From contig CAKSHC010000002.1 in NCBI GenBank assembly GCA_934456365.1, positions 160,508-224,507 on the forward strand: 64,000 nucleotides of DNA, given 5' to 3'. Each line of letters starts with the position of its first letter. Position 1 is the first letter of the stretch. Position numbers and translations under genes: made by a program. Under the pieces are notes generated by a model. It was not told where the DNA came from, did not search any database, and saw only the letters and a program-made list of their open reading frames with translations. This stretch comes from an uncultured Eubacteriales bacterium (GTDB lineage: Bacteria > Bacillota > Clostridia > Oscillospirales > UMGS1783). Positions 41,711-64,000 of the stretch are shown one piece after another.

Positions 41711-42343
41711 TTAATTGTACTTTGCGTCGCAGAAAGGGACGACGTCGCGGTCGTTGACCACCAGGAAGGGATGGTCGACCAGCGAGAGCATCGGCCGGTC
41801 GCGCAGGGAATCGGAGTAGGCGTAGGAATCGGCGCGGTCGATGGTGAGGTTGTGTTCCTGTAAGTAGATCCCGAGCCGGCGCACCTTTTCCTGACCCGCG
41901 CAGTTTTTCCCGGCGGGCAGGCAGGAGAAGCGGCCGTTTTTGAGGGGGCGCAGGGGGGAGGCCAGAATATCGTCGCAAAGACCGCGCCGGGCGAATTCGC
42001 GCACATACGGTTCAGGCGAGGCCGAAAGGATCAGCACCCGCCGGCCTTCTTTTTTGTGCTGCTCGAGAAGAGCCCAGGTCGCCTCGATGGCACGGGGGCG
42101 CAGCTTTTTTTCGAAAAAGGCGGCGAAATCCTCCGGGCGCATACGGCTCATCGGGGAGTAGACCACCGCCTTGAAAAGCTCGACCGGCAGAATTTTGCAG
42201 AGATAGAGAAGCAGGATCAGCGGGAAAACGGGAAGCCAAAGGGCGCAGAGCGGCGCCCGGGAAAGCCCGAAGAAATAGAAGGGAATCAGGCTGTCGCCGG
42301 GGGTGAGAGTGTCGTCAAGATCAAAAAGCGCAAAGGATTCCAT
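41711..42343 (-). CDS. HAD-IB family hydrolase
   Basis: FDLDDTL (motif I), ILSASP (motif II), and K...D...D (motif III). Confidence 0.7.
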   Translation of the reverse strand: MESFALFDLDDTLTPGDSLIPFYFFGLSRAPLCALWLPVFPLILLLYLCKILPVELFKAVVYSPMSRMRPEDFAAFFEKKLRPRAIEATWALLEQHKKEGRRVLILSASPEPYVREFARRGLCDDILASPLRPLKNGRFSCLPAGKNCAGQEKVRRLGIYLQEHNLTIDRADSYAYSDSLRDRPMLSLVDHPFLVVNDRDVVPFCDAKYN

Positions 42344-42367
42344 GGCTGCCTCCCGTTTTTCTCTTTA

Positions 42368-43447
42368 TTATAAGGGATTTCGGGCGCGTTTGCAAGCCCG
42401 GAAGCTCAAAAGCCAGGCCGCGAAAAGGGGAATCACCAAAAAGGGAGCGGCCAGAAAGGGATAGGCGCGCAAAGCCGCCAGAAGCTCGGCCGAATCGGCA
42501 AAGAGGATCAGCGAAAAGCCCAGCATTAGCGCCGCCACCGCCGGCGCCAGCCGCTCGGGGCGCTCCACCCGGGCGCACCCGCCCAGCGAATGCAGGCAGA
42601 AAAGCAGGCAAACGCAGGTTTTCAGATACATTCCCACAATGAAATGCACCGATAAGATCACTTCAATGCGCTGGAAAAAGCTGTTGATCTCCAAAACGGA
42701 AAGAGCCATATAGTAGGGATAGCTCAGCGCATACAGGCACCCCTCGCCCAGCACCCCCGCGGTGAGCGCATAGCAAAGCGCCGTCACGGCTCCCGAGCAG
42801 AAAAGCGAGGCTAAAAGCGGCTTTTCCACCCCCTTCGCCTCGCAGCGGAAGAGAAAGGGCATGCAGAAAAGCGCCTGCGCGAAGGGGTAGAAAAAGAGGG
42901 AAAGCGAGCCGAGGGCGAAATCCCCGAAGGGGCGGTTGAGCAGCGGCAGAAGCTGGGCCGGGTCGAAGCGGGAAAAGGAAAGAAGGAGGCTGAGCAGCAA
43001 AACGCCCGCCGCCAGCGGAAAGAGCAGCCGGCAAAGCCGCGCGGTGGCCGCCAGGCCGCTTTTGGCCGTCAGAGCCGTGGCCAGCGTGATCAGAAGGGAA
43101 AAGACGATGGCCAGAGCGCTCGTGCGCCCCACGATCAGGAGAAACCGGGTCACATAGGAGATCAGGATGGCTCCGGTCAGCAGGGAAAAGAGGGCGTAGA
43201 TCCCGAGCAGGATCCGGCCGAACACCCGCCCGAACAAAAGCAGCACCACTTCGTCGGCACGCTTGTCGGGGAAGCGGCGGCGCAGCGCGGCCGCCATGGC
43301 GTAAAGCGGCAGGGCCAGAAGCATGCCGCAAAGCGCCGCCAGGTAGGAATCCGAGCCGGCGAAATCGTTCATGCCCAGGACCAGCGTGGTGGAGGTTGTG
43401 GTCGTGAAGCAGACAGCAAACAGGGAAAGCTGCGAAACTTTTTTCAT
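42368..43447 (-). CDS. spore germination protein, GerAB/GerKB-type permease subunit
   Basis: 10-TM APC-like permease. Start at MKKVSQ. Confidence 0.75.
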   Translation of the reverse strand: MKKVSQLSLFAVCFTTTTSTTLVLGMNDFAGSDSYLAALCGMLLALPLYAMAAALRRRFPDKRADEVVLLLFGRVFGRILLGIYALFSLLTGAILISYVTRFLLIVGRTSALAIVFSLLITLATALTAKSGLAATARLCRLLFPLAAGVLLLSLLLSFSRFDPAQLLPLLNRPFGDFALGSLSLFFYPFAQALFCMPFLFRCEAKGVEKPLLASLFCSGAVTALCYALTAGVLGEGCLYALSYPYYMALSVLEINSFFQRIEVILSVHFIVGMYLKTCVCLLFCLHSLGGCARVERPERLAPAVAALMLGFSLILFADSAELLAALRAYPFLAAPFLVIPLFAAWLLSFRACKRARNPL

Positions 43448-43623
43448 AAAAACCACCTCGCCACCGAAAAGCTGTCGAAGAAAACGGCGCACAGAAAGAG
43501 CGCCAGCGCCGCGGCGCTGAGGGAAAAATAAAGCGGGGCCGGAGGCCTGTCCTCCTGCCGCGTCAGAAAATAGAAGAGCGGCAAAGCCAGCGCAAAGGTG
43601 AAGAAAAAGAGCAAACGGGACAT
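43444..43623 (-). CDS. small hydrophobic ORF (59 aa, 2 TM) between the ger C and B subunits
   Basis: MSRLLFFFTFALALPLFYFLTRQ... Its ATG sits right after the gerC-like stop region, and its TGA overlaps the gerB ATG (ATGA). Below the ORF-track cut-off. Unverified. Confidence 0.3.
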   Translation of the reverse strand: MSRLLFFFTFALALPLFYFLTRQEDRPPAPLYFSLSAAALALFLCAVFFDSFSVARWFL

Positions 43624-43636
43624 ACTGCCTCCTGAT

Positions 43637-44695
43637 TCATTCCGACTGGCCGTAGTCGACCAGATAGACTTCGCAGAAAATCGCGGGGGAAAGCTCGGCC
43701 AGCTCCTTTTCGGGCAGCCGGGCGCGCAGGCGCGCGTTTTTCAGGCCGAAGAGGTCGGCGTCCAGCCGCTGCGCCTTTTCCCAAAGGGCCTCGGCCCGGC
43801 GCGTCAGCGCCTCCTGCAAAAGCTCGCCCGGGTTTCCGCCCGGATCCCCCTGATCCAGCTCGGCCCGCACAAAGAAGGAGAGCGTTTCGCCCGAGGGGGC
43901 GGCCGAGAGGGAAACCTGCGTCTGGTCGGTGCGGAAGGAGCGGCCTTGGGCTGTCAGCACGCCTTGAGGGATCCCGTCGGTCATCAGCCGGAAAACCACC
44001 GTTTCCTCCTCGGAAAGCGAGCCGCAGAGCTTTCCTTCCCGCACCACAGCCGCCCCCGAGAGCGCCGGGCTTTCGCCTCTGGTGGAGAGCAGGGGCAAAA
44101 CCGCCGTTTTCGAGGCGCTTTTCATCGCCCCGTAGACCGAATAAACCGGCATTTCCACCCCGGTGCCGTTTTCCCGGGCGTTGTCGAGCAGGCTGCGAAG
44201 CCCATACGAGCAAACCGAGAAAAATTCCAGCTTTTGGCGCAAAAGCGCGCCGCTTTCTCCTTCGGTCACCGCCAGCGGCACGGCGATGCGCAGTGTGTAG
44301 GCGCGCAGCACCCATTCGGCGATGGTTTCGATCCCGTCCCGGCAGAGCTCCTGCGAAAGCAGGAGGATGGAGGCGTGGCTCCAGTAGATGGGCTTGCCCA
44401 TCTGCCGCTCCAGGGCGATGGTGGCGTCGCTCATGGTTTCGCCCTCGGCCGAAAAGCAGAGCGAGCCGGTCGGGCCCTCGGCCTCGCCGCCCGAAACATC
44501 GGCCACCTCGAGCGTCAGGCGGATGCGCCCGCCCTCGCCCCGGTCAAGCGCCGCGCCGGCCGCGATGGCGTAGGTTTCCAGCTCCCGCCCCGAGCCACCG
44601 GTCACGGTGCACAAAACGGTCAGAGCCGCCACCGCCGCGATCAGCGCCCAGGCCTGCCGCGCGCCGAGGCGGGTTTTCGCGTCATCCTTCCGCAC
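43637..44695 (-). CDS. spore germination protein, GerAC-type lipoprotein subunit
   Basis: The signal peptide ends with a lipobox-like LTVLC. The length and composition fit the Ger(x)C family. Confidence 0.7.
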   Translation of the reverse strand: MRKDDAKTRLGARQAWALIAAVAALTVLCTVTGGSGRELETYAIAAGAALDRGEGGRIRLTLEVADVSGGEAEGPTGSLCFSAEGETMSDATIALERQMGKPIYWSHASILLLSQELCRDGIETIAEWVLRAYTLRIAVPLAVTEGESGALLRQKLEFFSVCSYGLRSLLDNARENGTGVEMPVYSVYGAMKSASKTAVLPLLSTRGESPALSGAAVVREGKLCGSLSEEETVVFRLMTDGIPQGVLTAQGRSFRTDQTQVSLSAAPSGETLSFFVRAELDQGDPGGNPGELLQEALTRRAEALWEKAQRLDADLFGLKNARLRARLPEKELAELSPAIFCEVYLVDYGQSE

Positions 44696-54352: not shown

Positions 54353-54427
54353 TGGAGCTGGTGAAAGGAATCGAACCTTCAACCTGCTCATTACGAATGA
54401 GCTGCTCTACCATTGAGCCACACCAGC
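54353..54427 (-). tRNA. tRNA-Thr (anticodon CGU), CCA encoded
   Basis: The reverse complement GCTGGTGTGGCTCAATGGTAGAGCAGCTCATTCGTAATGAGCAGGTTGAAGGTTCGATTCCTTTCACCAGCTCCA folds as a cloverleaf: 7-bp acceptor stem, GCTC/GAGC D-stem, GCTCA/TGAGC anticodon stem with loop TTCGTAA, and a GGTTCGATTCC T-arm. Confidence 0.8.
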
Positions 54428-56780: not shown

Positions 56781-57386
56781 ATGAGAACGACAGAACAGCA
56801 GCACAACGAGCGCAAACGCGAGATCATGGAAAAGTGCTTTGCCTGCTATGCGGAAAACGGGCTGACGGGCACGGGCATCAAGGCTTTGGCAGCGGCCTGC
56901 GGCTGTACCACGGGAAATCTGTATTCCTATTTCAATAGCGTGGATGAGCTGATTTTGGAATCGACCGCCTACTGCATGGCAAAGGTGGAGGACGATTTCA
57001 TGAAAAAAGCCCCGACCGATCCCCGGGACGCCATGCGCTTTATCGAGGAGATCCCCTATTGGACGGCACGGGAGCACGGCAAGAAATACCGGCTGATGTA
57101 TCAGATTTACACCCATCCGAAATATATTGAATATGGCAAGAGGTTTTTCGAGGGCGTGAACGAGCGCTATACCGAGTATGCCAGGCAGCTGGAACCGAAG
57201 ATCGGCATTCCCTATACGACGATCACGCCGCTGATCTTCATCTTTGTGCGCGCCTGCGTGCACTACGCCATGTTCGAGGACGAATACTATCTGAAAGCCC
57301 AGATGGAGGTTCTGAAGCAGGGCGTTGCCCTGTTTGCTGATAAATACCGCTCACAATATCTGAATCACGGAGGGGATGCGAAATGA
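56781..57386 (+). CDS. TetR/AcrR family transcriptional regulator
   Basis: N-terminal HTH (CFACYAENGLTGTGIKALAAACGCTTGNLYSYF). Its stop overlaps the start of the following lipoprotein gene (ATGA). Confidence 0.65.
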   Translation: MRTTEQQHNERKREIMEKCFACYAENGLTGTGIKALAAACGCTTGNLYSYFNSVDELILESTAYCMAKVEDDFMKKAPTDPRDAMRFIEEIPYWTAREHGKKYRLMYQIYTHPKYIEYGKRFFEGVNERYTEYARQLEPKIGIPYTTITPLIFIFVRACVHYAMFEDEYYLKAQMEVLKQGVALFADKYRSQYLNHGGDAK

Positions 57387-58465
57387 GAAGATGGCTGCGA
57401 GGGATCGTTTGTCTGCTTGTGATGTCGGTCGTGCTTTTCGCCGGGTGCAGCAGCACTCAGCAAACAAGCACGGCACAGGACCGGCCGGAGGTGCGCAACA
57501 ACGGCACGGCGATCCAGTGGAAGTATGGCAGTGAGAGCGAGTGGCGCGACCTTGTGGCGCTTGCGGATCTTATGGGCGCCTCGGGAGAAAAGGGCGCGGC
57601 CGGGATCGCCGGTAAAGACGGCATTGATGGCAGAAACGGCGTCGATGGCAAAAACGGCGCCGACGGCAAAACCGTTGAGGTGAGAAAAACCGATTCCAGC
57701 ATTCAGTGGCGGGTTGAAGGCGGCGAGTGGCAGGATCTTGTGGCGCTCTCCGATCTTTCCGGCCCCTCCGGGAAAAGCGGCGCGGACGGAGCAAACGGCG
57801 CAAACGGCAAAACGCCGGAATTCCGGGTGAACGAAAACACCCTGCAATGGCGCTACATCGGCGATGAGATCTGGCTGAACCTGTATGATCTTTCCGCCTT
57901 GAAAGGGCTCGACGGCAAAGACGGCGCAGCCGGGAAAGACGGCGTAAACGGCAAAGACGGCACTGACGGCAAGGATGGAATCGACGGGCAAAATGGCAAG
58001 GACGGCAGCTGCCCAGGCTATTTTTACGCAGAGGGAAGCGTTTCGGCCTGGCCTCTTCAATACGGATCCCAAAAAATTTCTCTTTCGGAAGTCATCAACA
58101 AGGGCGGCCTGATCGCAGCCACACAGGACGGCGGCCTTACCCTGAAAAAGGGGCATACCTACCGCGTTATCATAAGCGGCTCGCTCGGGGTGTGCTCGGG
58201 CGCTTCCGATGGCAGCGGCTATTATGGCATTCAGCTGACAGACAGCAGCGCCACCCCCGACTTCTGCCGGGAGATCACCCGCATAAAACGGGACGGAGTG
58301 AGCGCAGCCATTCCCTACAGCACCGACTACCATTCCTTCCATTTCACCAGGCTGTACGACGCGTCCGCGCAGGATATAACCCTGAAATTCCTGTTTGAGC
58401 AATCCGAATACGATACCTATATCGAACGCTTCAGAGGCACGATCACCATAACCGCCCTGGACTGA
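57383..58465 (+). CDS. BclA-like collagen-repeat lipoprotein: lipobox signal, three QW-WxDL beta repeats interleaved with G-X-Y triplets, and a C-terminal beta-jellyroll (C1q-like) domain
   Basis: The lipobox is LFAGC. The repeats are IQWKYGSESEWRDLVALADL, IQWRVEGGEWQDLVALSDL and LQWRYIGDEIWLNLYDLSAL, each followed by (G-x-D/N-G) runs. The C-terminal 150 aa are beta-rich. Confidence 0.7.
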   Translation: MRRWLRGIVCLLVMSVVLFAGCSSTQQTSTAQDRPEVRNNGTAIQWKYGSESEWRDLVALADLMGASGEKGAAGIAGKDGIDGRNGVDGKNGADGKTVEVRKTDSSIQWRVEGGEWQDLVALSDLSGPSGKSGADGANGANGKTPEFRVNENTLQWRYIGDEIWLNLYDLSALKGLDGKDGAAGKDGVNGKDGTDGKDGIDGQNGKDGSCPGYFYAEGSVSAWPLQYGSQKISLSEVINKGGLIAATQDGGLTLKKGHTYRVIISGSLGVCSGASDGSGYYGIQLTDSSATPDFCREITRIKRDGVSAAIPYSTDYHSFHFTRLYDASAQDITLKFLFEQSEYDTYIERFRGTITITALD

Positions 58466-58495
58466 GCCGATCCACAGAAAACGGAGGTGCGGAAC

Positions 58496-60281
58496 ATGAA
58501 AAAACGAATCCTCGGCGTCCTGCTCGCCCTTTGTCTGGTGCTTGGAATGATGCCGACGGCCGTCTTTGCCGAAGGCGGCGCAAAGAAAAAGCATTACCCT
58601 CGGCACAACCGCTTTTGAGGGCGTTCAGAAAAGCAGCGTCCGGTTCGGCAGCTACAAGCAGTCGAGCGACGGCAGCGGCGGCTTTCAGACGGAGCCTGTC
58701 AGATGGCGCGTTCTGCGCCGCTCGGAGGGGCTGGTATGGCTCCTTTCGGATAAAATCCTGGATACCTATTATTACCACAGCGAAGACGGATGGTATCATG
58801 ATGTGTACTGGCAGGACACCCTGATGAAGCAATGGCTGAACAGCGAGCTTGAGGAGGGCGGATTTTCCGACGAGGCATTCAGCCCCGAGGAGTTTAAAGC
58901 CATTGCACTGAAAGAAGAACGGCTTGGCCGGGTGCTGCTCCTTTCCCGTGACGAAACGGAAGACCCCGAATGGTACGCAAACGGGCGCACCGCTCTTTTG
59001 GCAAAAGACAGCGATTACACCGCCTCCGGCGGAACGGTCGGGGCCCGCAACTTCGGGAAAAACGGCGCCTGGGTCCTTCGGGAAGACAAGGCCACGGCAT
59101 ACGTCTATTACGTGGATTCCGACGGGCAATACACCGACATTATGTACGGCGATTATTTTATCTTTGCCGTCCGCCCGTTTGTTTATATAGACGAAGCAAA
59201 GGTCCTCTTCACCTCTCCGGCCGTCGGCGGGAAAACGGCAATGGGGCTGACCGCTGTTTTCGGCTATGACGGAGAGGATTATAAGCTGACGGTGAAGGAC
59301 GATGAGAGAAACGGATTTCTTGCAAAGCTGAGGTCTTATGCGGGAAACATCGTTCAGTTTGATTACGAGGGCGCCAAAACGGGCGGCAATGAGTATCTTT
59401 CCGCAATGGTGCTCAACGGCGAAACCGTGAAATACTACGGCAGGCTCAAAAACGTCGGCGCCGCGGGCGAGGAAAGCGGAACGCTGACGCTCACTCTTCC
59501 CGTAAGCGTGGATGCGGAAAGCGGCGATCGGCTGTTTGTTTTCAACGAGCAGTGCAACGGCGACGGCAAAACTGACTATGCAAGCAGTTTGTGCGAGCTT
59601 GCGCTGAAATCGGCCGGCGCCGCGGCGCCCCGACTTCGCATCCATCCCGAAACCGACGAGTGGGAGGTTTCCTACGACGAGGGAACCACCTGGACCTCCC
59701 TCGGCGTGAAAGCGACCGGGATGAAAGGGGATAAGGGCGACGCCGGAGCGGACGGCGCGACCCCTCAGCTGAAAATCGGAAGCGACGCCCTCTGGTATGT
59801 TTCCCATGACGGCGGAACCACCTGGACCTCTCTCGGTGTGAAAGCCACGGGAGCGGACGGGAAAGACGGTCAGCCCGGCGCAGAGGGCAAGGACGGCACG
59901 ACCCCGCAGCTGAAAATCGGAAGCGACGCCCTCTGGTACGTTTCCCACGACGGCGGAGAAACCTGGATCTCTCTTGGCGTGAAAGCCTTTGGGGATAAAG
60001 GCGAAAAGGGAGATCGCGGAGAAAAAGGCGACGAAGGCGACAAAGGAGATAACGGCGCAGACGGCCGGATCCCCTTCATCGGCGAAAACGGCAACTGGTG
60101 GGTCGGGGAAAAGGATACCGGCGTAAAAGCGTCGGCGGCCGCGGCTGCCGCAGGGGATTTGGCGGGCGCTGAAAAAAGCCCGCTGGCGATCCTCGCGATC
60201 GCCGTCGCAGGGGTTTCGCTTTTGATCAACATCGTTTTGATTTCGTATACTGTGCTGAAAAAGAAAAAGAGCCCTGCTTGA
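58496..60281 (+). pseudogene. surface protein with collagen-like triplets and a C-terminal TM anchor; the reading frame is broken by a +1/-1 shift in an A-run about 85 nt after the start (sequencing error, pseudogene or slippage)
   Basis: ATG at 58496 encodes the signal peptide MKKRILGVLLALCLVLGMMPTAVFA..., then stops after HNRF. The 571-aa track ORF 58566..60281 continues in another frame from the GCAAAGAAAAAGC run. Deleting one A joins the two. The C-terminus is a TM helix followed by KKKKSPA. Confidence 0.6.
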
Positions 60282-60392
60282 GTGCCTCACAAGCTTTTTT
60301 CCCGCTTATAGGGCATCGATCGGGCGCAAGGCGGAAAACGGCACAAGTTCAAGAACCGCTCTGAATTCCGTTTATAAATGGAGGTATGGAAC

Positions 60393-63300
60393 ATGAAAGT
60401 ACGAGTCCTCGGTATCCTGCTCACGCTTTGCCTGGCGGCGAGCGCCGTGGCGCCCGTGGTGAGCCATTTTGCCCCGGGCGCAGCAGCCTCGGGCGCATAC
60501 GGCGCCCTGCTCGCGCCCGACACCACACCCCCTGCCGGATGGGAAGAAGATGCAAGCAACCCATACGGCACAAAGCAGGGGCAGCCCTTTGCCATCACCC
60601 CGTGGTATGAGCCGATTCTCTACGGCACCCGCAACGCGGAAAACGAAGCCGCAAAGGATCACACCAAGGTGTACGACAAGCTGACCCTCGGAAAAAATAT
60701 CATCGAGTCCCCGAGCGGTTCCTACAGCCTATCCTCGGTCGACAATGTCGCCTTCGCGGTCGGGACGGCTTACGACCCGCTCGGCACGGGCCGAAACGAC
60801 CACGCCATCTTTGTCGGCCTTTGCGATCTGGATAATACCAGGAACACGGCGAAGGTCTGCTTCTGGGTGCAGAATCTTGTAACCGATCAGCGCTCCGATC
60901 TTCAGAAAATCGCCGACGCGCCGAAGTGGGCGTGCAAAACCGACTACGGCGAGCTGGAATATCAGGAATTCCGCCACTATTTCAATGTCACGGCGGGCGA
61001 CTACGACGGCGACGGCAAGATGACCGCCGTGATCACCTATGCCGGCAGCGACGACCTCTGGGGGATCGCGGGCACGGGGATCGCCGGTGAACCGAAGTTT
61101 TACATAAGATCCTTCGCGGGCGCGGATACCTACTTCGGCGGTTGGGAAACAACCGAATACGAAAGAGATCAGATCACGAAATCCCTCGTTTCGCTTGACA
61201 TCGACCGCGACGGCTGCGACGAGCTTGCGGTTGTCGCCGGCGCCGCCGAGCCGCTTCCTTACAGCACCGGTATGGCGCCCGGGCTCCCCGGGGTTTCGGC
61301 GGATGCTTATGCCCTTTTTGTTTCAAAGCTGACGGTGTATAAAAACAACAGCGGAACCTTTAAGAAAATCTCGCAGAAAAAGCTGATGACCTTAAACCGC
61401 GAGGATGAGAAGGAAGACGGCAACCGATACTACGACCATATCCGCTTCCCGAACATCGCAGCGGCGGATATCAACTGCGACGGATACGAAGAGATCGTCG
61501 TCGCGGGATACCACAACGAAGTAAAGGAAGAAAAGCTCTACGGTTTTCTCGCCAATTCGGATGCCGACGCTTCGAATATGGGCTACGCCGTATACTACAG
61601 CGAAACCGACGCGATCACAAACGTCCAGAAGATCGCGATGAGCCGCTACACCGCAGGCGGAACGGACAATAACGGCGTGAAGCCCAAGCCCGCCATGACC
61701 GGCGTTGCCATCAACGGAAGGGGCACGCCCGAGCAGGTCTTCATCGCCGGCGGCCTTTATGAAGTGCAGGAAAACGGCGCGCTCAATCTTCTGTGCGATA
61801 CCGCGCGCGATAAAAACAAGAGCGCAAGATGGTGGTGGTATTATCAGGACGCCATCGCGGGCAACTTCGATCATAACACAGAGGGGCGCGAGCAGGTGAT
61901 CGCGCTTGCCGCCGAACGGCAGGACGGCACCAAAAATGCGCGCAAATTCGACCTCTTTACCGATGTATACTATGGCGAGAACTTCGGCAGCGGGGCTTTA
62001 TCGACCGCCGGCAAATATACGGTGACAGCCGAAAATGATGAATATTCCAAGCTGTGCCACGACGTCGACCTCGCCTGGGATATGCCGTATAACTGCATCC
62101 TGCTTGCGGGGGATGTGAACAAGGACGGTCTGTTTGCCCGCTATGAGGGCAAGGGCTACGGCTATTCCGACGCCCAGGTGCAGGCGGTGCTTCAGGCGGC
62201 TCCCTATTTTTCGGAGATCGGCGACTATGACCTCGACTTCTCCGACGGCTCCACCACCTATACCTTCTCCTCCGGCTATTCGGACACGAAATCCTCCTCG
62301 CACAATACCTCCTTCGGCGCGTCCATCGTTGTGCAGGGCGATCTGAAGGTGTGGCGATACGAGGCGACGCTCGGATATACCATGGACTTCACAAAAAGCA
62401 CCGAGGACACCCTTTCAAAGGAATACAGCGCTTCCTTCAATGCCGGCGGCAACGATTCCGTGGTGCTCTACCGCGTGCCGGCAACAACCTATTACTACTC
62501 CGTCTATGACCCCCAAAAGGGCGATTTCGACCTGAGCGAGAAAAACACCATCGCCCTCATGATCCCCGGCCAGCCGGTCTATACCATGCTCGACCGCGAG
62601 TATTACGACGAGTTTGCAAAGCTGTATAACGAAACCTATAAAGAGGATATCGCGGCGGGGAAAGCAAAGGCTTTGCCGCTGCTGACCCGTCATGTCCTGC
62701 CGGAAAACGCCGAGGGTGATCCGTTTGCCTATTGGTCAAATCCCGGCTCTTCCGACGAATCGGTCACGCAATTTGAGTCGCTGAGCAAGCAGAAATACGA
62801 GCTCGGCTTCGGCGCGAGCAGCATCACAAACGACTGGACGATAACCTCCGAGCACGCCGAAGGCATTGAAATGGCGCACGGGTTCTCCGCCTCGATGAAA
62901 AGCACCTGGGGCACGGATGCCTTCAATATGGGATTTGCGATCGATTTCAGCTACAGCCATGCCAAAGGAACGGTCTATACCACAACCGAGAGCAGCGGCG
63001 CCAGCGGCACGGTCAATAATATCGACCGCCGCTCGCTTCTGTCCTCCTACGGAATCGGGTATGACGTTTCCGGCCAGTACGGCTTTACCTGGGATTTCGG
63101 TATGCGCACCTGGACGGCGGGCGATCAGAAGATCCCCGTGTTCGGCTATGTGCTGACCAATCTTCGCGCCGCCCCGCCCGTGCCGGAGCTGACCGGCGTG
63201 TCCGTAACGGATCGTCAAAGCGCCAAAATCACCTGGGAAGCGCCCGCGGCAGACAGCCGCCGCCCCTTTGCCGGGTATCATATCTGGATGCGCCTGGACG

Positions 63301-64000
63301 ACGGCGAGTTTGAGCGCGTGACCGAAACGCCGCTTTCTCCGGAAATTCTTTCCTACACCTACCCCTCGCTTCAGGAGAACACCACCTATACCTTTGCGGT
63401 CACTTCCGTGAGCGGCAGCGGCATGGTGTCGGCGTTTTCCAACAGCAAAACCTTCTCAACCTTCTCGGGCGCCGACGGCCGGGAAATCGAATTCCGAAAC
63501 AACGGCAGCACCATCCAGTGGCGCTATGCGGGTGAGGGAGACGACGCTTACCGCGATCTCGTTTCGCTCGCCGATCTGACAGGCTCCGACGGCGCAGACG
63601 GAAAACAGATCGAGCTGCGGGTCTATAACGGGTTTGTGCAGTGGAAGTACAGCGGGGATTCCGCCTGGCGCGATCTGATCGCCCTGTCGGATCTGAAGGG
63701 CGAAAAGGGCGACCCCGGACAGGACGGGAAAGACGGCATAACGCCGCGGCTGAAAATAGACGACGACAACTTCTGGTATGTTTCGTATGACGGCGGCCAA
63801 AGCTGGATTTCCCTTGGCGTAAAAGCCACCGGAGAAACCGGCGCGCCGGGGCAGGAGGGGAAAGACGGCAAGGATGGGCGCGGAATCGCCAAAGCGGAGA
63901 TCAACGCAAACGGCGAGCTTACCCTCACCTATACGGACGGCACAACGGTCAACCTCGGTAAGGTCGTCGGCGCGGACGGGAAAGACGGTCAGATCCCCTT
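60393..64000 (+). CDS. giant secreted protein (more than 1200 aa, 3' partial) with FG-GAP/VCBS-like repeats, an unassigned beta-rich central region, an FN3 domain and collagen-like triplets
   Basis: ATG 8 nt after a GGAGGT RBS, with signal peptide MKVRVLGILLTLCLAASAVAP. The frame stays open to the window end, so it is absent from the ORF track. Calcium-binding-like loops DIDRDGCDELAV, DINCDGYEEIVVAG and GDVNKDGL. FN3-like region VPELTGVSVTDRQSAKITWEAP...TYTFAVTSVS. Then repeats IQWRYAGEGDDAYRDLVSLADL and VQWKYSGDSAWRDLIALSDL followed by G-x-x triplets. Confidence 0.7.
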   Translation, partial: MKVRVLGILLTLCLAASAVAPVVSHFAPGAAASGAYGALLAPDTTPPAGWEEDASNPYGTKQGQPFAITPWYEPILYGTRNAENEAAKDHTKVYDKLTLGKNIIESPSGSYSLSSVDNVAFAVGTAYDPLGTGRNDHAIFVGLCDLDNTRNTAKVCFWVQNLVTDQRSDLQKIADAPKWACKTDYGELEYQEFRHYFNVTAGDYDGDGKMTAVITYAGSDDLWGIAGTGIAGEPKFYIRSFAGADTYFGGWETTEYERDQITKSLVSLDIDRDGCDELAVVAGAAEPLPYSTGMAPGLPGVSADAYALFVSKLTVYKNNSGTFKKISQKKLMTLNREDEKEDGNRYYDHIRFPNIAAADINCDGYEEIVVAGYHNEVKEEKLYGFLANSDADASNMGYAVYYSETDAITNVQKIAMSRYTAGGTDNNGVKPKPAMTGVAINGRGTPEQVFIAGGLYEVQENGALNLLCDTARDKNKSARWWWYYQDAIAGNFDHNTEGREQVIALAAERQDGTKNARKFDLFTDVYYGENFGSGALSTAGKYTVTAENDEYSKLCHDVDLAWDMPYNCILLAGDVNKDGLFARYEGKGYGYSDAQVQAVLQAAPYFSEIGDYDLDFSDGSTTYTFSSGYSDTKSSSHNTSFGASIVVQGDLKVWRYEATLGYTMDFTKSTEDTLSKEYSASFNAGGNDSVVLYRVPATTYYYSVYDPQKGDFDLSEKNTIALMIPGQPVYTMLDREYYDEFAKLYNETYKEDIAAGKAKALPLLTRHVLPENAEGDPFAYWSNPGSSDESVTQFESLSKQKYELGFGASSITNDWTITSEHAEGIEMAHGFSASMKSTWGTDAFNMGFAIDFSYSHAKGTVYTTTESSGASGTVNNIDRRSLLSSYGIGYDVSGQYGFTWDFGMRTWTAGDQKIPVFGYVLTNLRAAPPVPELTGVSVTDRQSAKITWEAPAADSRRPFAGYHIWMRLDDGEFERVTETPLSPEILSYTYPSLQENTTYTFAVTSVSGSGMVSAFSNSKTFSTFSGADGREIEFRNNGSTIQWRYAGEGDDAYRDLVSLADLTGSDGADGKQIELRVYNGFVQWKYSGDSAWRDLIALSDLKGEKGDPGQDGKDGITPRLKIDDDNFWYVSYDGGQSWISLGVKATGETGAPGQEGKDGKDGRGIAKAEINANGELTLTYTDGTTVNLGKVVGADGKDGQIP

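What the first reader, a model, noticed from the sequence alone, without database searches (positions are those of the whole stretch)
57383..64000. Novel approximately 20-aa beta-strand repeat (x-I/V-Q-W-K/R-Y...W-x-D-L-V/I-x-L-x-D-L) alternating with collagen-like G-X-Y triplets in three neighbouring proteins
The lipoprotein has three copies of the repeat. The frameshifted protein has a variant, TPQLKIGSDALWYVSHDGGTTWTSLGVKATG, in two exact copies between G-x-x runs. The giant protein has two canonical copies plus the variant (TPRLKIDDDNFWYVSYDGGQSWISLGVKATG). Such interleaving of short beta units with collagen triplets suggests a fibre or stalk architecture, as in BclA-like exosporium or phage-fibre proteins. 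The unit may be an uncatalogued repeat family. The exact nucleotide-level repetition at about 59730-59960 also makes this a recombination hotspot.
Basis: seen in the sequence. Interest (0 to 1): 0.5.

Follow-up and report, generated by a model that had tools for sequence, protein, structure and literature searches.

The report
Collagen-stalk surface proteins with beta-unit repeats
Three neighbouring genes of a human-gut Clostridia bacterium encode membrane-anchored, collagen-like stalk proteins whose stalks are punctuated by small beta-sheet modules. The main module is a real, very widespread 33-residue repeat, also found in phage tail fibres, that no domain library searched here models.

Summary
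The repeat is real. An HMM built from 629 units of other proteins finds exactly five copies in the window, each 43-53 bits (E 1e-12 to 1e-15): three in the lipoprotein P1 and two in the large protein P3. The unit is about 33 aa, not 20 (consensus REvELqxxxthIQWRYxGDxxWxNLvALSDLKG). AlphaFold2 predicts a three-stranded beta-meander plus one helical turn (pLDDT 88).

An exhaustive profile search finds at least 3,867 protein clusters with up to 16 copies each, mostly flanked by G-X-Y triplets. Members include surface lipoproteins and tail-fibre proteins of cultured phages (Erwinia S6, Xylella Salvo). Pfam, NCBIfam and the PDB hold no model or structure of it.

It is the core of Pfam DUF4988 and contains an Asp-box-like hairpin. 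P2 has three copies, none exact: 86% DNA identity, longest exact run 32 nt.

P1 ends in a TNF/C1q-like head resembling BclA and BxpB. P2 and P3 end in a transmembrane anchor. Orthologues keep the order of module types but vary collagen length.

Best reading: trimeric display stalks in which the beta modules act as trimer nodes. Trimerisation is inferred, not shown. This is an uncatalogued variant of a known kind, of moderate interest.

The parts
57383..58465 (+). P1: 360-aa lipoprotein. Order: lipid anchor, stalk, TNF-like head. Its start overlaps the stop of the upstream TetR gene (56781-57386).
   Evidence: ORF. Lipobox LFAGC at aa 18-22. Pfam Collagen 47.4 bits against a cut-off of 27.2. 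More than 1,700 homologues, many full-length at 36-60% identity.
57485..57577 (+). Canonical unit 1 (PEVRNNGTAIQWKYGSESEWRDLVALADLMG)
   Evidence: 44.0 bits, E 7e-13 against the external-unit HMM. AF2 strands at aa 35-39, 43-48 and 55-59, then helix 60-64.
57575..57673 (+). G-X-Y run of 11 triplets
57668..57763 (+). Canonical unit 2 (KTVEVRKTDSSIQWRVEGGEWQDLVALSDLSG)
   Evidence: 43.3 bits, E 1e-12
57761..57814 (+). G-X-Y run of 6 triplets
57809..57907 (+). Canonical unit 3 (KTPEFRVNENTLQWRYIGDEIWLNLYDLSALKG)
   Evidence: 45.3 bits, E 2.5e-13
57905..58012 (+). G-X-Y run of 12 triplets
58013..58462 (+). P1 C-terminal head: predicted TNF/C1q-like jelly roll
   Evidence: pLDDT 82-89. Foldseek against the PDB: 4-1BBL E 6e-6, BxpB 8d02 TM 0.63, BclA complex 3twi, cyanophage A-1(L) short tail-fibre domain. 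No Pfam hit.
58496..58618 (+). P2 signal-peptide ORF (MKKRILGVLLALCLVLGMMPTAVFA...), out of frame with the body of the gene
   Evidence: The ribosome-binding site plus signal peptide DNA is 82% identical to the start of P3 (family D6).
58586..58590 (+). A5 run, the likely site of the frameshift. Removing one A joins the frames and reads ...AEGGAKKSITLGTTAFEG.
   Evidence: reading the sequence. The same split (40-aa plus 571-aa ORFs) occurs in four metagenome contigs from at least two Hadza samples.
58566..60281 (+). P2 body (571-aa ORF). Order: DUF6273 head, middle region, stalk, C-terminal transmembrane anchor.
   Evidence: Pfam DUF6273 25.1 bits (cut-off 23.5) and DUF4988 44.4 bits (cut-off 30)
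59625..59720 (+). DUF4988-type unit 1 (APRLRIHPETDEWEVSYDEGTTWTSLGVKATG)
59760..59852 (+). DUF4988-type unit 2 (TPQLKIGSDALWYVSHDGGTTWTSLGVKATG), with an Asp-box-like S-x-D-x-G-x-T-W hairpin
   Evidence: Pfam DUF4988 best stretch aa 393-433, aligned to profile 106-152. BNR 25.2 bits, below the cut-off of 27.
59901..59993 (+). DUF4988-type unit 3 (TPQLKIGSDALWYVSHDGGETWISLGVKAFG)
   Evidence: 86% nt and 28/31 aa identical to unit 2
60066..60131 (+). Third unit kind (RIPFIGENGNWWVGEKDTGVKA), next to the membrane anchor
   Evidence: Weak match to the segment after the collagen region of phage 80alpha FibU gp68 (6v8i_BN, E 1e-3). Common in P1 homologues.
60180..60257 (+). P2 C-terminal hydrophobic anchor (PLAILAIAVAGVSLLINIVLISYTVL), followed by KKKK
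   Evidence: Sequence. P3 orthologues end the same way.
60393..64000 (+). P3: large surface protein that runs off the window. Order: signal peptide, FG-GAP region, fn3 domain, stalk.
   Evidence: Pfam FG-GAP, fn3 and DUF4988. Orthologues are 1,243-1,488 aa and end in a transmembrane anchor plus KKKK.
63480..63584 (+). Canonical unit 4 (REIEFRNNGSTIQWRYAGEGDDAYRDLVSLADLTG)
   Evidence: 46.6 bits, E 1e-13
63603..63701 (+). Canonical unit 5 (KQIELRVYNGFVQWKYSGDSAWRDLIALSDLKG)
   Evidence: 52.6 bits, E 1e-15. AF2 single-unit model with mean pLDDT 88.
63741..63833 (+). DUF4988-type unit (TPRLKIDDDNFWYVSYDGGQSWISLGVKATG)
   Evidence: Pfam DUF4988 44.1 bits
63879..63971 (+). Fourth unit kind (RGIAKAEINANGELTLTYTDGTTVNLGKVVG), flanked by collagen triplets
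   Evidence: Weak full-length alignment to Pfam CFSR, 'Collagen-flanked surface repeat' (E 0.2, 12.3 bits, cut-off 27). Conserved at this position in all complete P3 orthologues examined.

Best explanation
P1, P2 and P3 are membrane-anchored surface proteins of a spore-forming human-gut Oscillospirales bacterium, a relative of Clostridium sp. CAG:964 and Eubacterium sp. OM08-24. Each is built as anchor, stalk and head.

The stalk is made of short, proline-poor collagen-like G-X-Y runs. These are punctuated by small autonomous beta modules of four kinds in a conserved N-to-C order:
- canonical 33-aa unit
- DUF4988-type unit
- CFSR-like unit
- GENGNWW unit

The canonical unit folds as a three-stranded antiparallel beta-meander followed by one helical turn. 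One face of the sheet is hydrophobic (V/I3, L5, I12, W14, Y16, W22). I infer that three chains bring these faces together around the three-fold axis. Each unit would then be a trimer node that nucleates, registers and clamps the adjoining short triple helices, and may also act as a hinge.

The result is a stalk that holds a variable head away from the membrane:
- P1: TNF/C1q-like trimer
- P2: DUF6273
- P3: FG-GAP plus fn3

In P1 the collagen part alone would span about 25 nm. The same module serves as shaft material in phage tail fibres.

Shown: the repeat itself, its family size, the monomer fold prediction, the collagen flanking, the anchors, the TNF-like head, its presence in phage fibres, and the conserved order with variable lengths.
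Inferred: trimerisation of the unit, the node or clamp role, and the display function.
For: - Five copies at E 1e-12 to 1e-15 and nothing else in the window.
- An exhaustive profile search of 1.84 billion representatives gives 3,867 proteins at E<=1e-3, 1,970 at E<=1e-10 and 397 at E<=1e-30, with up to 16 units per protein.
- In the 150 best proteins there are 883 units, and 449 of 651 full-length ones are exactly 33 aa. About 78-80% have G-X-Y in at least 3 of the 4 flanking triplets. Of the spacers between successive units, 507 of 726 are multiples of 3, most often only 1-4 triplets. That is too short for a stand-alone triple helix.
- The AF2 single-unit model has mean pLDDT 88 (core 95-97), with strands at 9-14, 17-22 and 29-33 and a helix at 34-37. 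All three P1 units show the same elements.
- P1 passes the Pfam Collagen cut-off. Its head matches TNF/C1q-like folds, which are obligate trimers in established knowledge.
- Anchors lie at the end opposite the head: a lipobox in P1 and a C-terminal transmembrane segment plus KKKK in P2 and the P3 orthologues.
- All complete P3 orthologues examined read CANON-CANON-collagen-VAR(1-3)-collagen-CFSRlike-GENGNWW, followed in the orthologue read in full by a transmembrane anchor. Their collagen runs vary from 5 to 25 triplets. P1-like lipoproteins vary in the same way.
- Phage shaft use: Erwinia phage S6 gp066 'tail fiber protein' has three units and Xylella phage Salvo gp42 has one. In all, 43 phage records match.
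- Prokaryotic collagen-like proteins are normally flanked by non-collagen domains, and BclA is stabilised by its C-terminal domain (review PMC8968730).
Against: - No oligomer prediction or experiment was possible, so trimerisation of the unit is inference.
- The collagen runs in the window's own P2 and P3 are short (5-9 triplets). P2's Collagen score (25.6 bits) is just under the Pfam cut-off of 27.2.
- The conserved Trp and Tyr residues could equally be a ligand-binding surface.
- P2 is frameshifted and may not be made as a surface protein.
Confidence: 0.6

Rival explanations
1. The beta units are ligand-binding (glycan or host-matrix) adhesin repeats. They are displayed along a fibre and are not structural trimer nodes. 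The conserved aromatic face (W14, Y16, W22) is a binding platform.
For: Invariant Q13, W14 and W22 and an aromatic-rich face. Multi-copy arrays occur in phage receptor-recognition proteins and surface proteins. The proteins come from a gut organism.
Against: The unit is embedded in G-X-Y on both sides in about 80% of cases, and spacers are often only 1-4 triplets. Sequence conservation is uniform across hosts as different as Xylella, Erwinia, Clostridium and gut Oscillospirales, which is unexpected for a specificity determinant. The proteins already carry separate distal head domains.
Confidence: 0.17
2. The G-X-Y runs here are too short and too proline-poor to form triple helices. The proteins would be monomeric 'beads on a string', with the beta units as independent spacers and the triplets as flexible linkers.
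For: Spacers of only 1-4 triplets are the commonest. P2's Collagen score is below the Pfam cut-off, and P3 in the window has runs of only 5 triplets. AF2 gives a confident monomer fold.
Against: P1 and the P3 orthologues have runs of 11-25 triplets that pass the Pfam Collagen cut-off (46-86 bits). P1's head has a TNF/C1q-like fold, a class that trimerises. The strict multiple-of-3 spacing would not be needed for a mere linker. A 33-aa sheet with a fully hydrophobic face is unlikely to be stable alone (inference).
Confidence: 0.13
3. The genes are BclA-type exosporium 'hair' proteins of the spore, or remnants of prophage tail-fibre genes, and not vegetative cell-surface proteins.
For: The organism has sporulation and germination genes nearby: YqfD, GerA and a spore permease at 42-48 kb. 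The architecture of collagen plus a TNF-like head matches BclA and BxpB. PHROG tail-family hits were found.
Against: All three proteins have Sec-type or lipoprotein signal peptides, and two have C-terminal transmembrane anchors. Exosporium proteins are assembled in the mother-cell cytoplasm without signal peptides (established knowledge). No phage genes flank the locus. The neighbours are LacI, XRE, TetR, an HMA-domain protein, MutS2, Era and PhoH. The cluster is conserved at a chromosomal position in many related genomes.
Confidence: 0.07

Closest known systems
BclA / BxpB (Bacillus exosporium) and C1q/TNF-superfamily collagen-headed proteins (C1q, EDA-A1)
   Same: A collagen-like G-X-Y stalk ends in a C-terminal TNF/C1q-like jelly-roll head. 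P1's head matches BxpB (TM 0.63), a BclA entry, EDA-A1 and 4-1BBL by fold.
   Different: P1 has a lipoprotein signal peptide, not an exosporium-targeting N-terminus. Its stalk is interrupted three times by 33-aa beta units, which BclA lacks. There is no sequence similarity (no Pfam or PDB sequence hit for the head).
Pfam PF19079 CFSR (Collagen-flanked surface repeat) and PF16378 DUF4988
   Same: Both are short non-collagen modules flanked by collagen triplets in bacterial surface proteins. The 'variant' unit is the core of DUF4988 and passes its cut-off in P2 and P3. The RGIAKAEINANGELTLTY... unit aligns end to end with CFSR, though weakly.
   Different: The canonical unit matches neither family: no Pfam hit at E<=10, and hhalign against the DUF4988-type unit gives only 8% probability. 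CFSR itself is below its cut-off here (12.3 against 27 bits). Neither family has an assigned function.
Phage tail-fibre shafts with collagen-like segments (PHROG phrog_19976 'tail assembly protein'; Erwinia phage S6 gp066; Xylella phage Salvo gp42; S. aureus phage 80alpha FibU gp68)
   Same: The same canonical unit, at 38-50% identity, sits in annotated tail-fibre or tail-assembly proteins. The GENGNWW-type unit resembles the segment after the collagen region of 80alpha FibU.
   Different: The window genes are chromosomal, carry signal peptides and membrane anchors, and have no phage neighbours. In 80alpha only the N-terminal domain of FibU was modelled. The collagen region and what follows it were not resolved (PMC7048315), so no structure covers any of these units.
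T4 fibritin foldon (27-aa beta-hairpin trimerisation domain, used to nucleate collagen peptides)
   Same: Functional analogy only. Both are very small beta modules next to a trimeric fibre, with an extended N-terminal segment, a hairpin carrying a central Trp, and a short C-terminal helical turn. The foldon description is from my own knowledge.

Membership tests
Pfam PF01391 Collagen triple helix repeat | Score at or above the gathering cut-off (27.2 bits) on uninterrupted G-X-Y repeats | tested here: met
   P1 scores 47.4 bits and P3 orthologues 46.5 and 75.2 bits. P2 alone is just below, at 25.6 bits.
Pfam PF01391 Collagen triple helix repeat | Formation of a trimeric triple helix | not testable with these tools
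   Only monomer AF2 was available. The collagen segments have pLDDT below 50 in the monomer model.
Pfam PF16378 DUF4988 | Score at or above the gathering cut-off (30 bits) | tested here: met
   P2 scores 44.4 bits and P3 44.1 bits. The TP.LKI..WYVS.DGG..W.SLG unit aligns to profile positions about 106-152. This applies to the 'variant' unit only.
Pfam PF16378 DUF4988 | The canonical IQWRY unit belongs to the same family | tested here: not met
   P1 (three canonical units) has no DUF4988 hit. The canonical HMM scores the variant at -2.8 bits. hhalign gives 8% probability.
Pfam PF19079 CFSR (Collagen-flanked surface repeat) | Score at or above the gathering cut-off (27 bits) | tested here: not met
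   The best score is 12.3 bits (E 0.2) for the unit at 63879-63971. Canonical units give no hit. CFSR is not listed for P3 orthologues at E<=0.1.
BclA-like exosporium collagen glycoproteins | Collagen-like region followed by a C-terminal TNF/C1q-like trimeric domain | tested here: met
   Fold match of P1 aa 211-360 to BxpB 8d02, the BclA complex 3twi and TNF ligands, plus a Collagen hit. The trimeric state itself was not tested.
BclA-like exosporium collagen glycoproteins | No secretion signal, and an N-terminal exosporium-targeting segment | tested here: not met
   P1 starts with a lipoprotein signal peptide (MRRWLRGIVCLLVMSVVLFAGC).
Phage tail fibre (PHROG phrog_19976 / phrog_36335) | Profile match | tested here: met
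   P1 E 2e-20 with three stretches, and P3 E 2e-13 with two stretches, both over the canonical units.
Phage tail fibre (PHROG phrog_19976 / phrog_36335) | Encoded within a phage or prophage structural module | tested here: not met
   The neighbours are LacI, XRE, TetR, an HMA-domain protein, MutS2, Era, PhoH, YqfD and GerA. The locus is conserved in related chromosomes.
BNR/Asp-box (PF02012) | S-x-D-x-G-x-T-W hairpin scoring at or above 27 bits | tested here: inconclusive
   P2 scores 25.2 bits with two stretches (SHDGGTTW, SHDGGETW), just below the cut-off. The motif is visible by eye in the DUF4988-type units.
Fibritin foldon | Sequence or fold similarity to the 27-aa foldon | tested here: not met

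The most novel reading that the evidence does not exclude
The canonical 33-aa unit is a previously undescribed, autonomous, foldon-like trimerisation module. It would nucleate and register collagen triple helices from an internal position, on both sides. It has spread between phage tail fibres and bacterial surface stalks across phyla. It could explain how hydroxyproline-free, very short prokaryotic collagen segments fold, and it could serve as a new building block for designed collagens.
Probability: 0.3. Interest if true: 0.55.

Novelty: new variant of a known kind. Interest (0 to 1): 0.4.

Why it matters
Prokaryotic collagen-like proteins lack hydroxyproline and depend on adjacent trimerisation domains to fold. 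Here a compact 33-residue module is found in thousands of phage fibres and bacterial surface proteins, yet Pfam, NCBIfam and the PDB do not cover it. It sits between collagen runs that are often far too short to be stable alone.

Defining it as a family would improve annotation of many 'hypothetical' and 'tail fiber' proteins of the gut microbiome. If it is a trimer node, it would be a natural internal clamp that collagen and biomaterial engineers could use.

For the organism, the locus describes a modular surface-display system: the same stalk grammar carries interchangeable heads. None of this overturns current understanding. It extends a known architecture.

Tried and rejected

2. Common origin of the unit kinds. 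hhalign gave 8% probability for canonical against DUF4988-type (the short alignment was in register), 16% for DUF4988-type against GENGNWW, and 0.1% for canonical against GENGNWW. None is demonstrable.

3. A solved structure for any unit. The PDB sequence searches found only collagen peptides and phage 80alpha FibU. The 80alpha paper shows that the relevant part of FibU was not modelled.

4. Word-indexed homologue searches with short queries. These returned only 8 hits and then 1 hit, so the third search was wasted. The exhaustive profile search was what worked.

5. The search for related loci with the unit alignment failed because no conserved stretch was long enough.

6. Literature. There were no hits for the motif strings or for 'collagen-flanked surface repeat'. 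The three DUF4988 papers were seen by title and abstract only and none was opened; none looked structural or functional.

7. Source names for family members were only 'hypothetical protein' and an unrelated 'trypsin-like peptidase domain-containing protein'.

8. The prophage explanation was rejected on context.

9. Assembly error as the cause of the P2 frameshift is unlikely. The same split is present in contigs from at least two independent samples.

Full report
GENES

The region 57383-64000 holds three same-strand genes.

P1 (57383-58465, 360 aa) starts with a lipoprotein signal (…LFAGC). Its start overlaps the stop of an upstream TetR-family gene.

P2 is split. An ATG at 58496 with a good ribosome-binding site opens a signal peptide (MKKRILGVLLALCLVLGMMPTAVFA…) that stops at 58616-58618. 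The 571-aa body (58566-60281) lies in the +1 frame. Removing one A from the A5 run at 58586-58590 joins the two frames and reads …AEGGAKKSITLGTTAFEG. The same split is called in four metagenome contigs from at least two Hadza gut samples. So it is a property of the organism and not an error in this window.

P3 starts at 60393 and runs off the window. Its ribosome-binding site and signal-peptide DNA are 82% identical to those of P2.

CHECK OF THE OBSERVATION

Aligning the window copies with relatives gives a 33-residue unit, RExELRxxxxxIQWRYxGDxxWxDLVALSDLxG.

A profile built from 629 non-redundant units taken from other proteins finds exactly five copies in the six-frame translation of the whole 64-kb window. 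Three are in P1 and two in P3, each at 43-53 bits (E 1e-12 to 1e-15). Nothing else scores.

P2 has no canonical unit. It has three copies, not two, of TP.LKI…WYVS.DGG..W.SLGVKATG, and P3 has one.

The two closest P2 copies share 28 of 31 residues and 80 of 93 nucleotides. The 141-nt tandem duplication is 77% identical, and its longest exact run is 32 nt. 'Exact nucleotide-level repetition' is therefore overstated.

Two further unit kinds are present:
- IPFIGENGNWWVGEKDTGVKA, at 60066-60131
- RGIAKAEINANGELTLTYTDGTTVNLGKVVG, at 63879-63971

IS THE UNIT CATALOGUED?

The 'variant' is. P2 and P3 pass the Pfam DUF4988 cut-off (44.4 and 44.1 bits against 30), with the unit on profile positions about 106-152. 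NCBIfam aligns the same stretch to the N-terminal part of the BT3328-family lyase model. The unit also contains an Asp-box-like S-x-D-x-G-x-T-W hairpin (BNR 25.2 bits, just under the cut-off).

The canonical unit is not catalogued:
- No Pfam match at E<=10 for isolated units.
- No Pfam match in eight relatives with 4-16 copies, where only 'Collagen' is found.
- Nothing in NCBIfam, PDB sequences, the literature search or source annotations.
- It is picked up only by whole-protein phage clusters in PHROGs: phrog_19976 'tail assembly protein' (E 2e-20, three stretches) and phrog_36335.

The canonical profile does not recognise the DUF4988-type unit (-2.8 bits). Profile-profile comparisons among the unit kinds are not significant. 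I therefore treat them as separate module families that occupy equivalent positions.

SIZE AND SPREAD OF THE FAMILY

An exhaustive HMMER search of 1.84 billion cluster representatives with the unit profile returned 3,867 proteins at E<=1e-3 and 397 at E<=1e-30. The richest protein has 16 units.

In the best 150 proteins there are 883 units:
- 449 of 651 full-length units are exactly 33 aa.
- About 78-80% are flanked by G-X-Y on each side.
- 507 of 726 inter-unit spacers are multiples of three, most often only 1-4 triplets.

By a rough heuristic, 63 of the 150 have signal-peptide-like N-termini (35 with a lipobox). The rest look like phage fibre proteins.

In cultured phages the unit lies in Erwinia phage S6 gp066 'tail fiber protein' (three units) and in Xylella phage Salvo gp42. 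It also occurs in Xanthomonas, Stenotrophomonas, Pseudomonas and Clostridium phages, 43 records in all.

STRUCTURE

With a 113-sequence alignment, AlphaFold2 predicts the unit with mean pLDDT 88 (core 95-97). The fold is a three-stranded antiparallel meander (EIELR, IQWRY, W.DLIA) followed by one helical turn. The three units in the full P1 model show the same elements.

From the alternation of residues, one face of the sheet carries V/I3, L5, I12, W14, Y16 and W22, and the other carries E2, E4, Q13 and R15. This is my inference from the sequence pattern; I had no coordinates.

P1's last 150 residues, which have no Pfam hit, are predicted at pLDDT 82-89 as a jelly roll. It matches TNF-family ligands (4-1BBL E 6e-6, CD40L, EDA-A1), B. 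anthracis BxpB (TM 0.63), a BclA entry and a cyanophage short-tail-fibre domain.

CONTEXT AND COMPARATIVE ANATOMY

The surrounding genes are chromosomal: MutS2, Era, PhoH, YqfD, GerA, a spore permease, LacI, XRE and TetR. There are no phage genes.

Relatives at 86-92% identity of the P3 mid-part are human-gut Oscillospirales: Clostridium sp. CAG:964 and CAG:448, Eubacterium sp. OM08-24, uncultured Ruminococcaceae and Hadza MAGs.

P3 orthologues are 1,243-1,488 aa and end in a hydrophobic anchor plus KKKK, as P2 does.

Across all complete P3 orthologues examined the stalk reads CANON-CANON-collagen-VAR(1-3 copies)-collagen-CFSRlike-GENGNWW; the one orthologue read in full continues into the transmembrane anchor. 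The collagen runs vary from 5 to 25 triplets.

P1-type lipoproteins read CANON-collagen-CANON-col5-CANON-collagen-(GENGNWW-collagen)-head, with runs of 4-39 triplets and occasional extra unit pairs.

So the grammar of module kinds is conserved while lengths and copy numbers drift.

The heads differ:
- P1: TNF-like
- P2: DUF6273
- P3: FG-GAP plus fn3
- One paralogue elsewhere: a ubiquitin-family domain

MECHANISM

Shown:
- collagen-class G-X-Y runs
- anchors at the end opposite the heads
- a head on P1 of a fold class that trimerises
- unit arrays embedded in triplets
- use of the same unit in phage fibre shafts

Inferred:
- The proteins are homotrimeric stalks that display heads away from the membrane. 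P1's 29 triplets at 0.286 nm per residue give about 25 nm, to which the three units add.
- Each beta unit is a trimer node whose hydrophobic faces meet on the three-fold axis. It would nucleate, register and clamp collagen segments that are too short and too proline-poor to be stable alone, and might also act as a hinge.

This fits the general rule that prokaryotic collagen-like regions rely on adjacent non-collagen domains (review PMC8968730).

I put this reading at about 0.6. The rivals are:
- ligand-binding repeats (0.17)
- monomeric beads on a string (0.13)
- exosporium or prophage proteins (0.07)

COMPARISON AND VERDICT

The architecture works like BclA or C1q-type collagen-headed proteins and like phage fibre shafts. 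However, P1 fails the exosporium-targeting criterion because it has a lipoprotein signal, and the locus is not phage.

The idea of a collagen-flanked beta module already exists in Pfam (CFSR, DUF4988). The canonical unit is a distinct sequence family that these libraries do not model. I classify it as a new variant of a known kind.

Interest is moderate (0.4). The finding is a solid annotation gap with a testable structural hypothesis, not a surprise to specialists.

Noticed in passing
window 58496-58618 and 58586-58590: P2's signal peptide is in a different frame from the gene body. One extra A in an A5 run explains the split, and the same split occurs in metagenome contigs from at least two samples. 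It could be a fixed pseudogene or slipped-strand phase variation.
   Followed up: partly
L006:2047-4251 (+) (MAG uncultured Anaerotruncus sp., CAJLZE010000026.1): A 735-aa paralogue with the same DUF4988-type/collagen/GENGNWW stalk carries a Pfam ubiquitin-family domain at aa 39-100 (E 6e-14, 52 bits against a cut-off of 25.4). That is a ubiquitin-like head on a bacterial surface stalk.
   Followed up: no
window 58479-58538 and 60376-60435: The 60 nt covering the ribosome-binding site and signal peptide of P2 and P3 are 82% identical. Similar signal peptides head many paralogues in related loci. This suggests duplication of a common 5' cassette.
   Followed up: partly
loci L005-L023; window 57383-64000: The N-to-C order of module kinds (canonical, DUF4988-type, CFSR-like, GENGNWW) is the same whether the membrane anchor is N-terminal (P1 type) or C-terminal (P2 and P3 type). 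The module next to the membrane therefore differs between the two types. This may reflect a folding direction.
   Followed up: no
alignment A2 (P1 homologues), columns about 60-70: Many P1 homologues have Trp in place of the lipobox Cys (…LAIGWSKAAK… in place of …AAGCSK…). Part of the family is therefore probably not lipidated.
   Followed up: no
window 56781-57386 and 57383: The stop of a TetR-family regulator gene overlaps the P1 start codon (ATGA overlap). This suggests co-transcription, or regulation of the stalk-protein genes by this repressor.
   Followed up: no
window 42001-44000: AT skew is unusually high here (0.336) compared with the rest of the window. The region encodes a spore-germination permease and neighbouring genes on the minus strand.
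   Followed up: no
window 54353-54427 (-): A single tRNA-Thr (CGT) is the only RNA gene detected in the window.
   Followed up: yes
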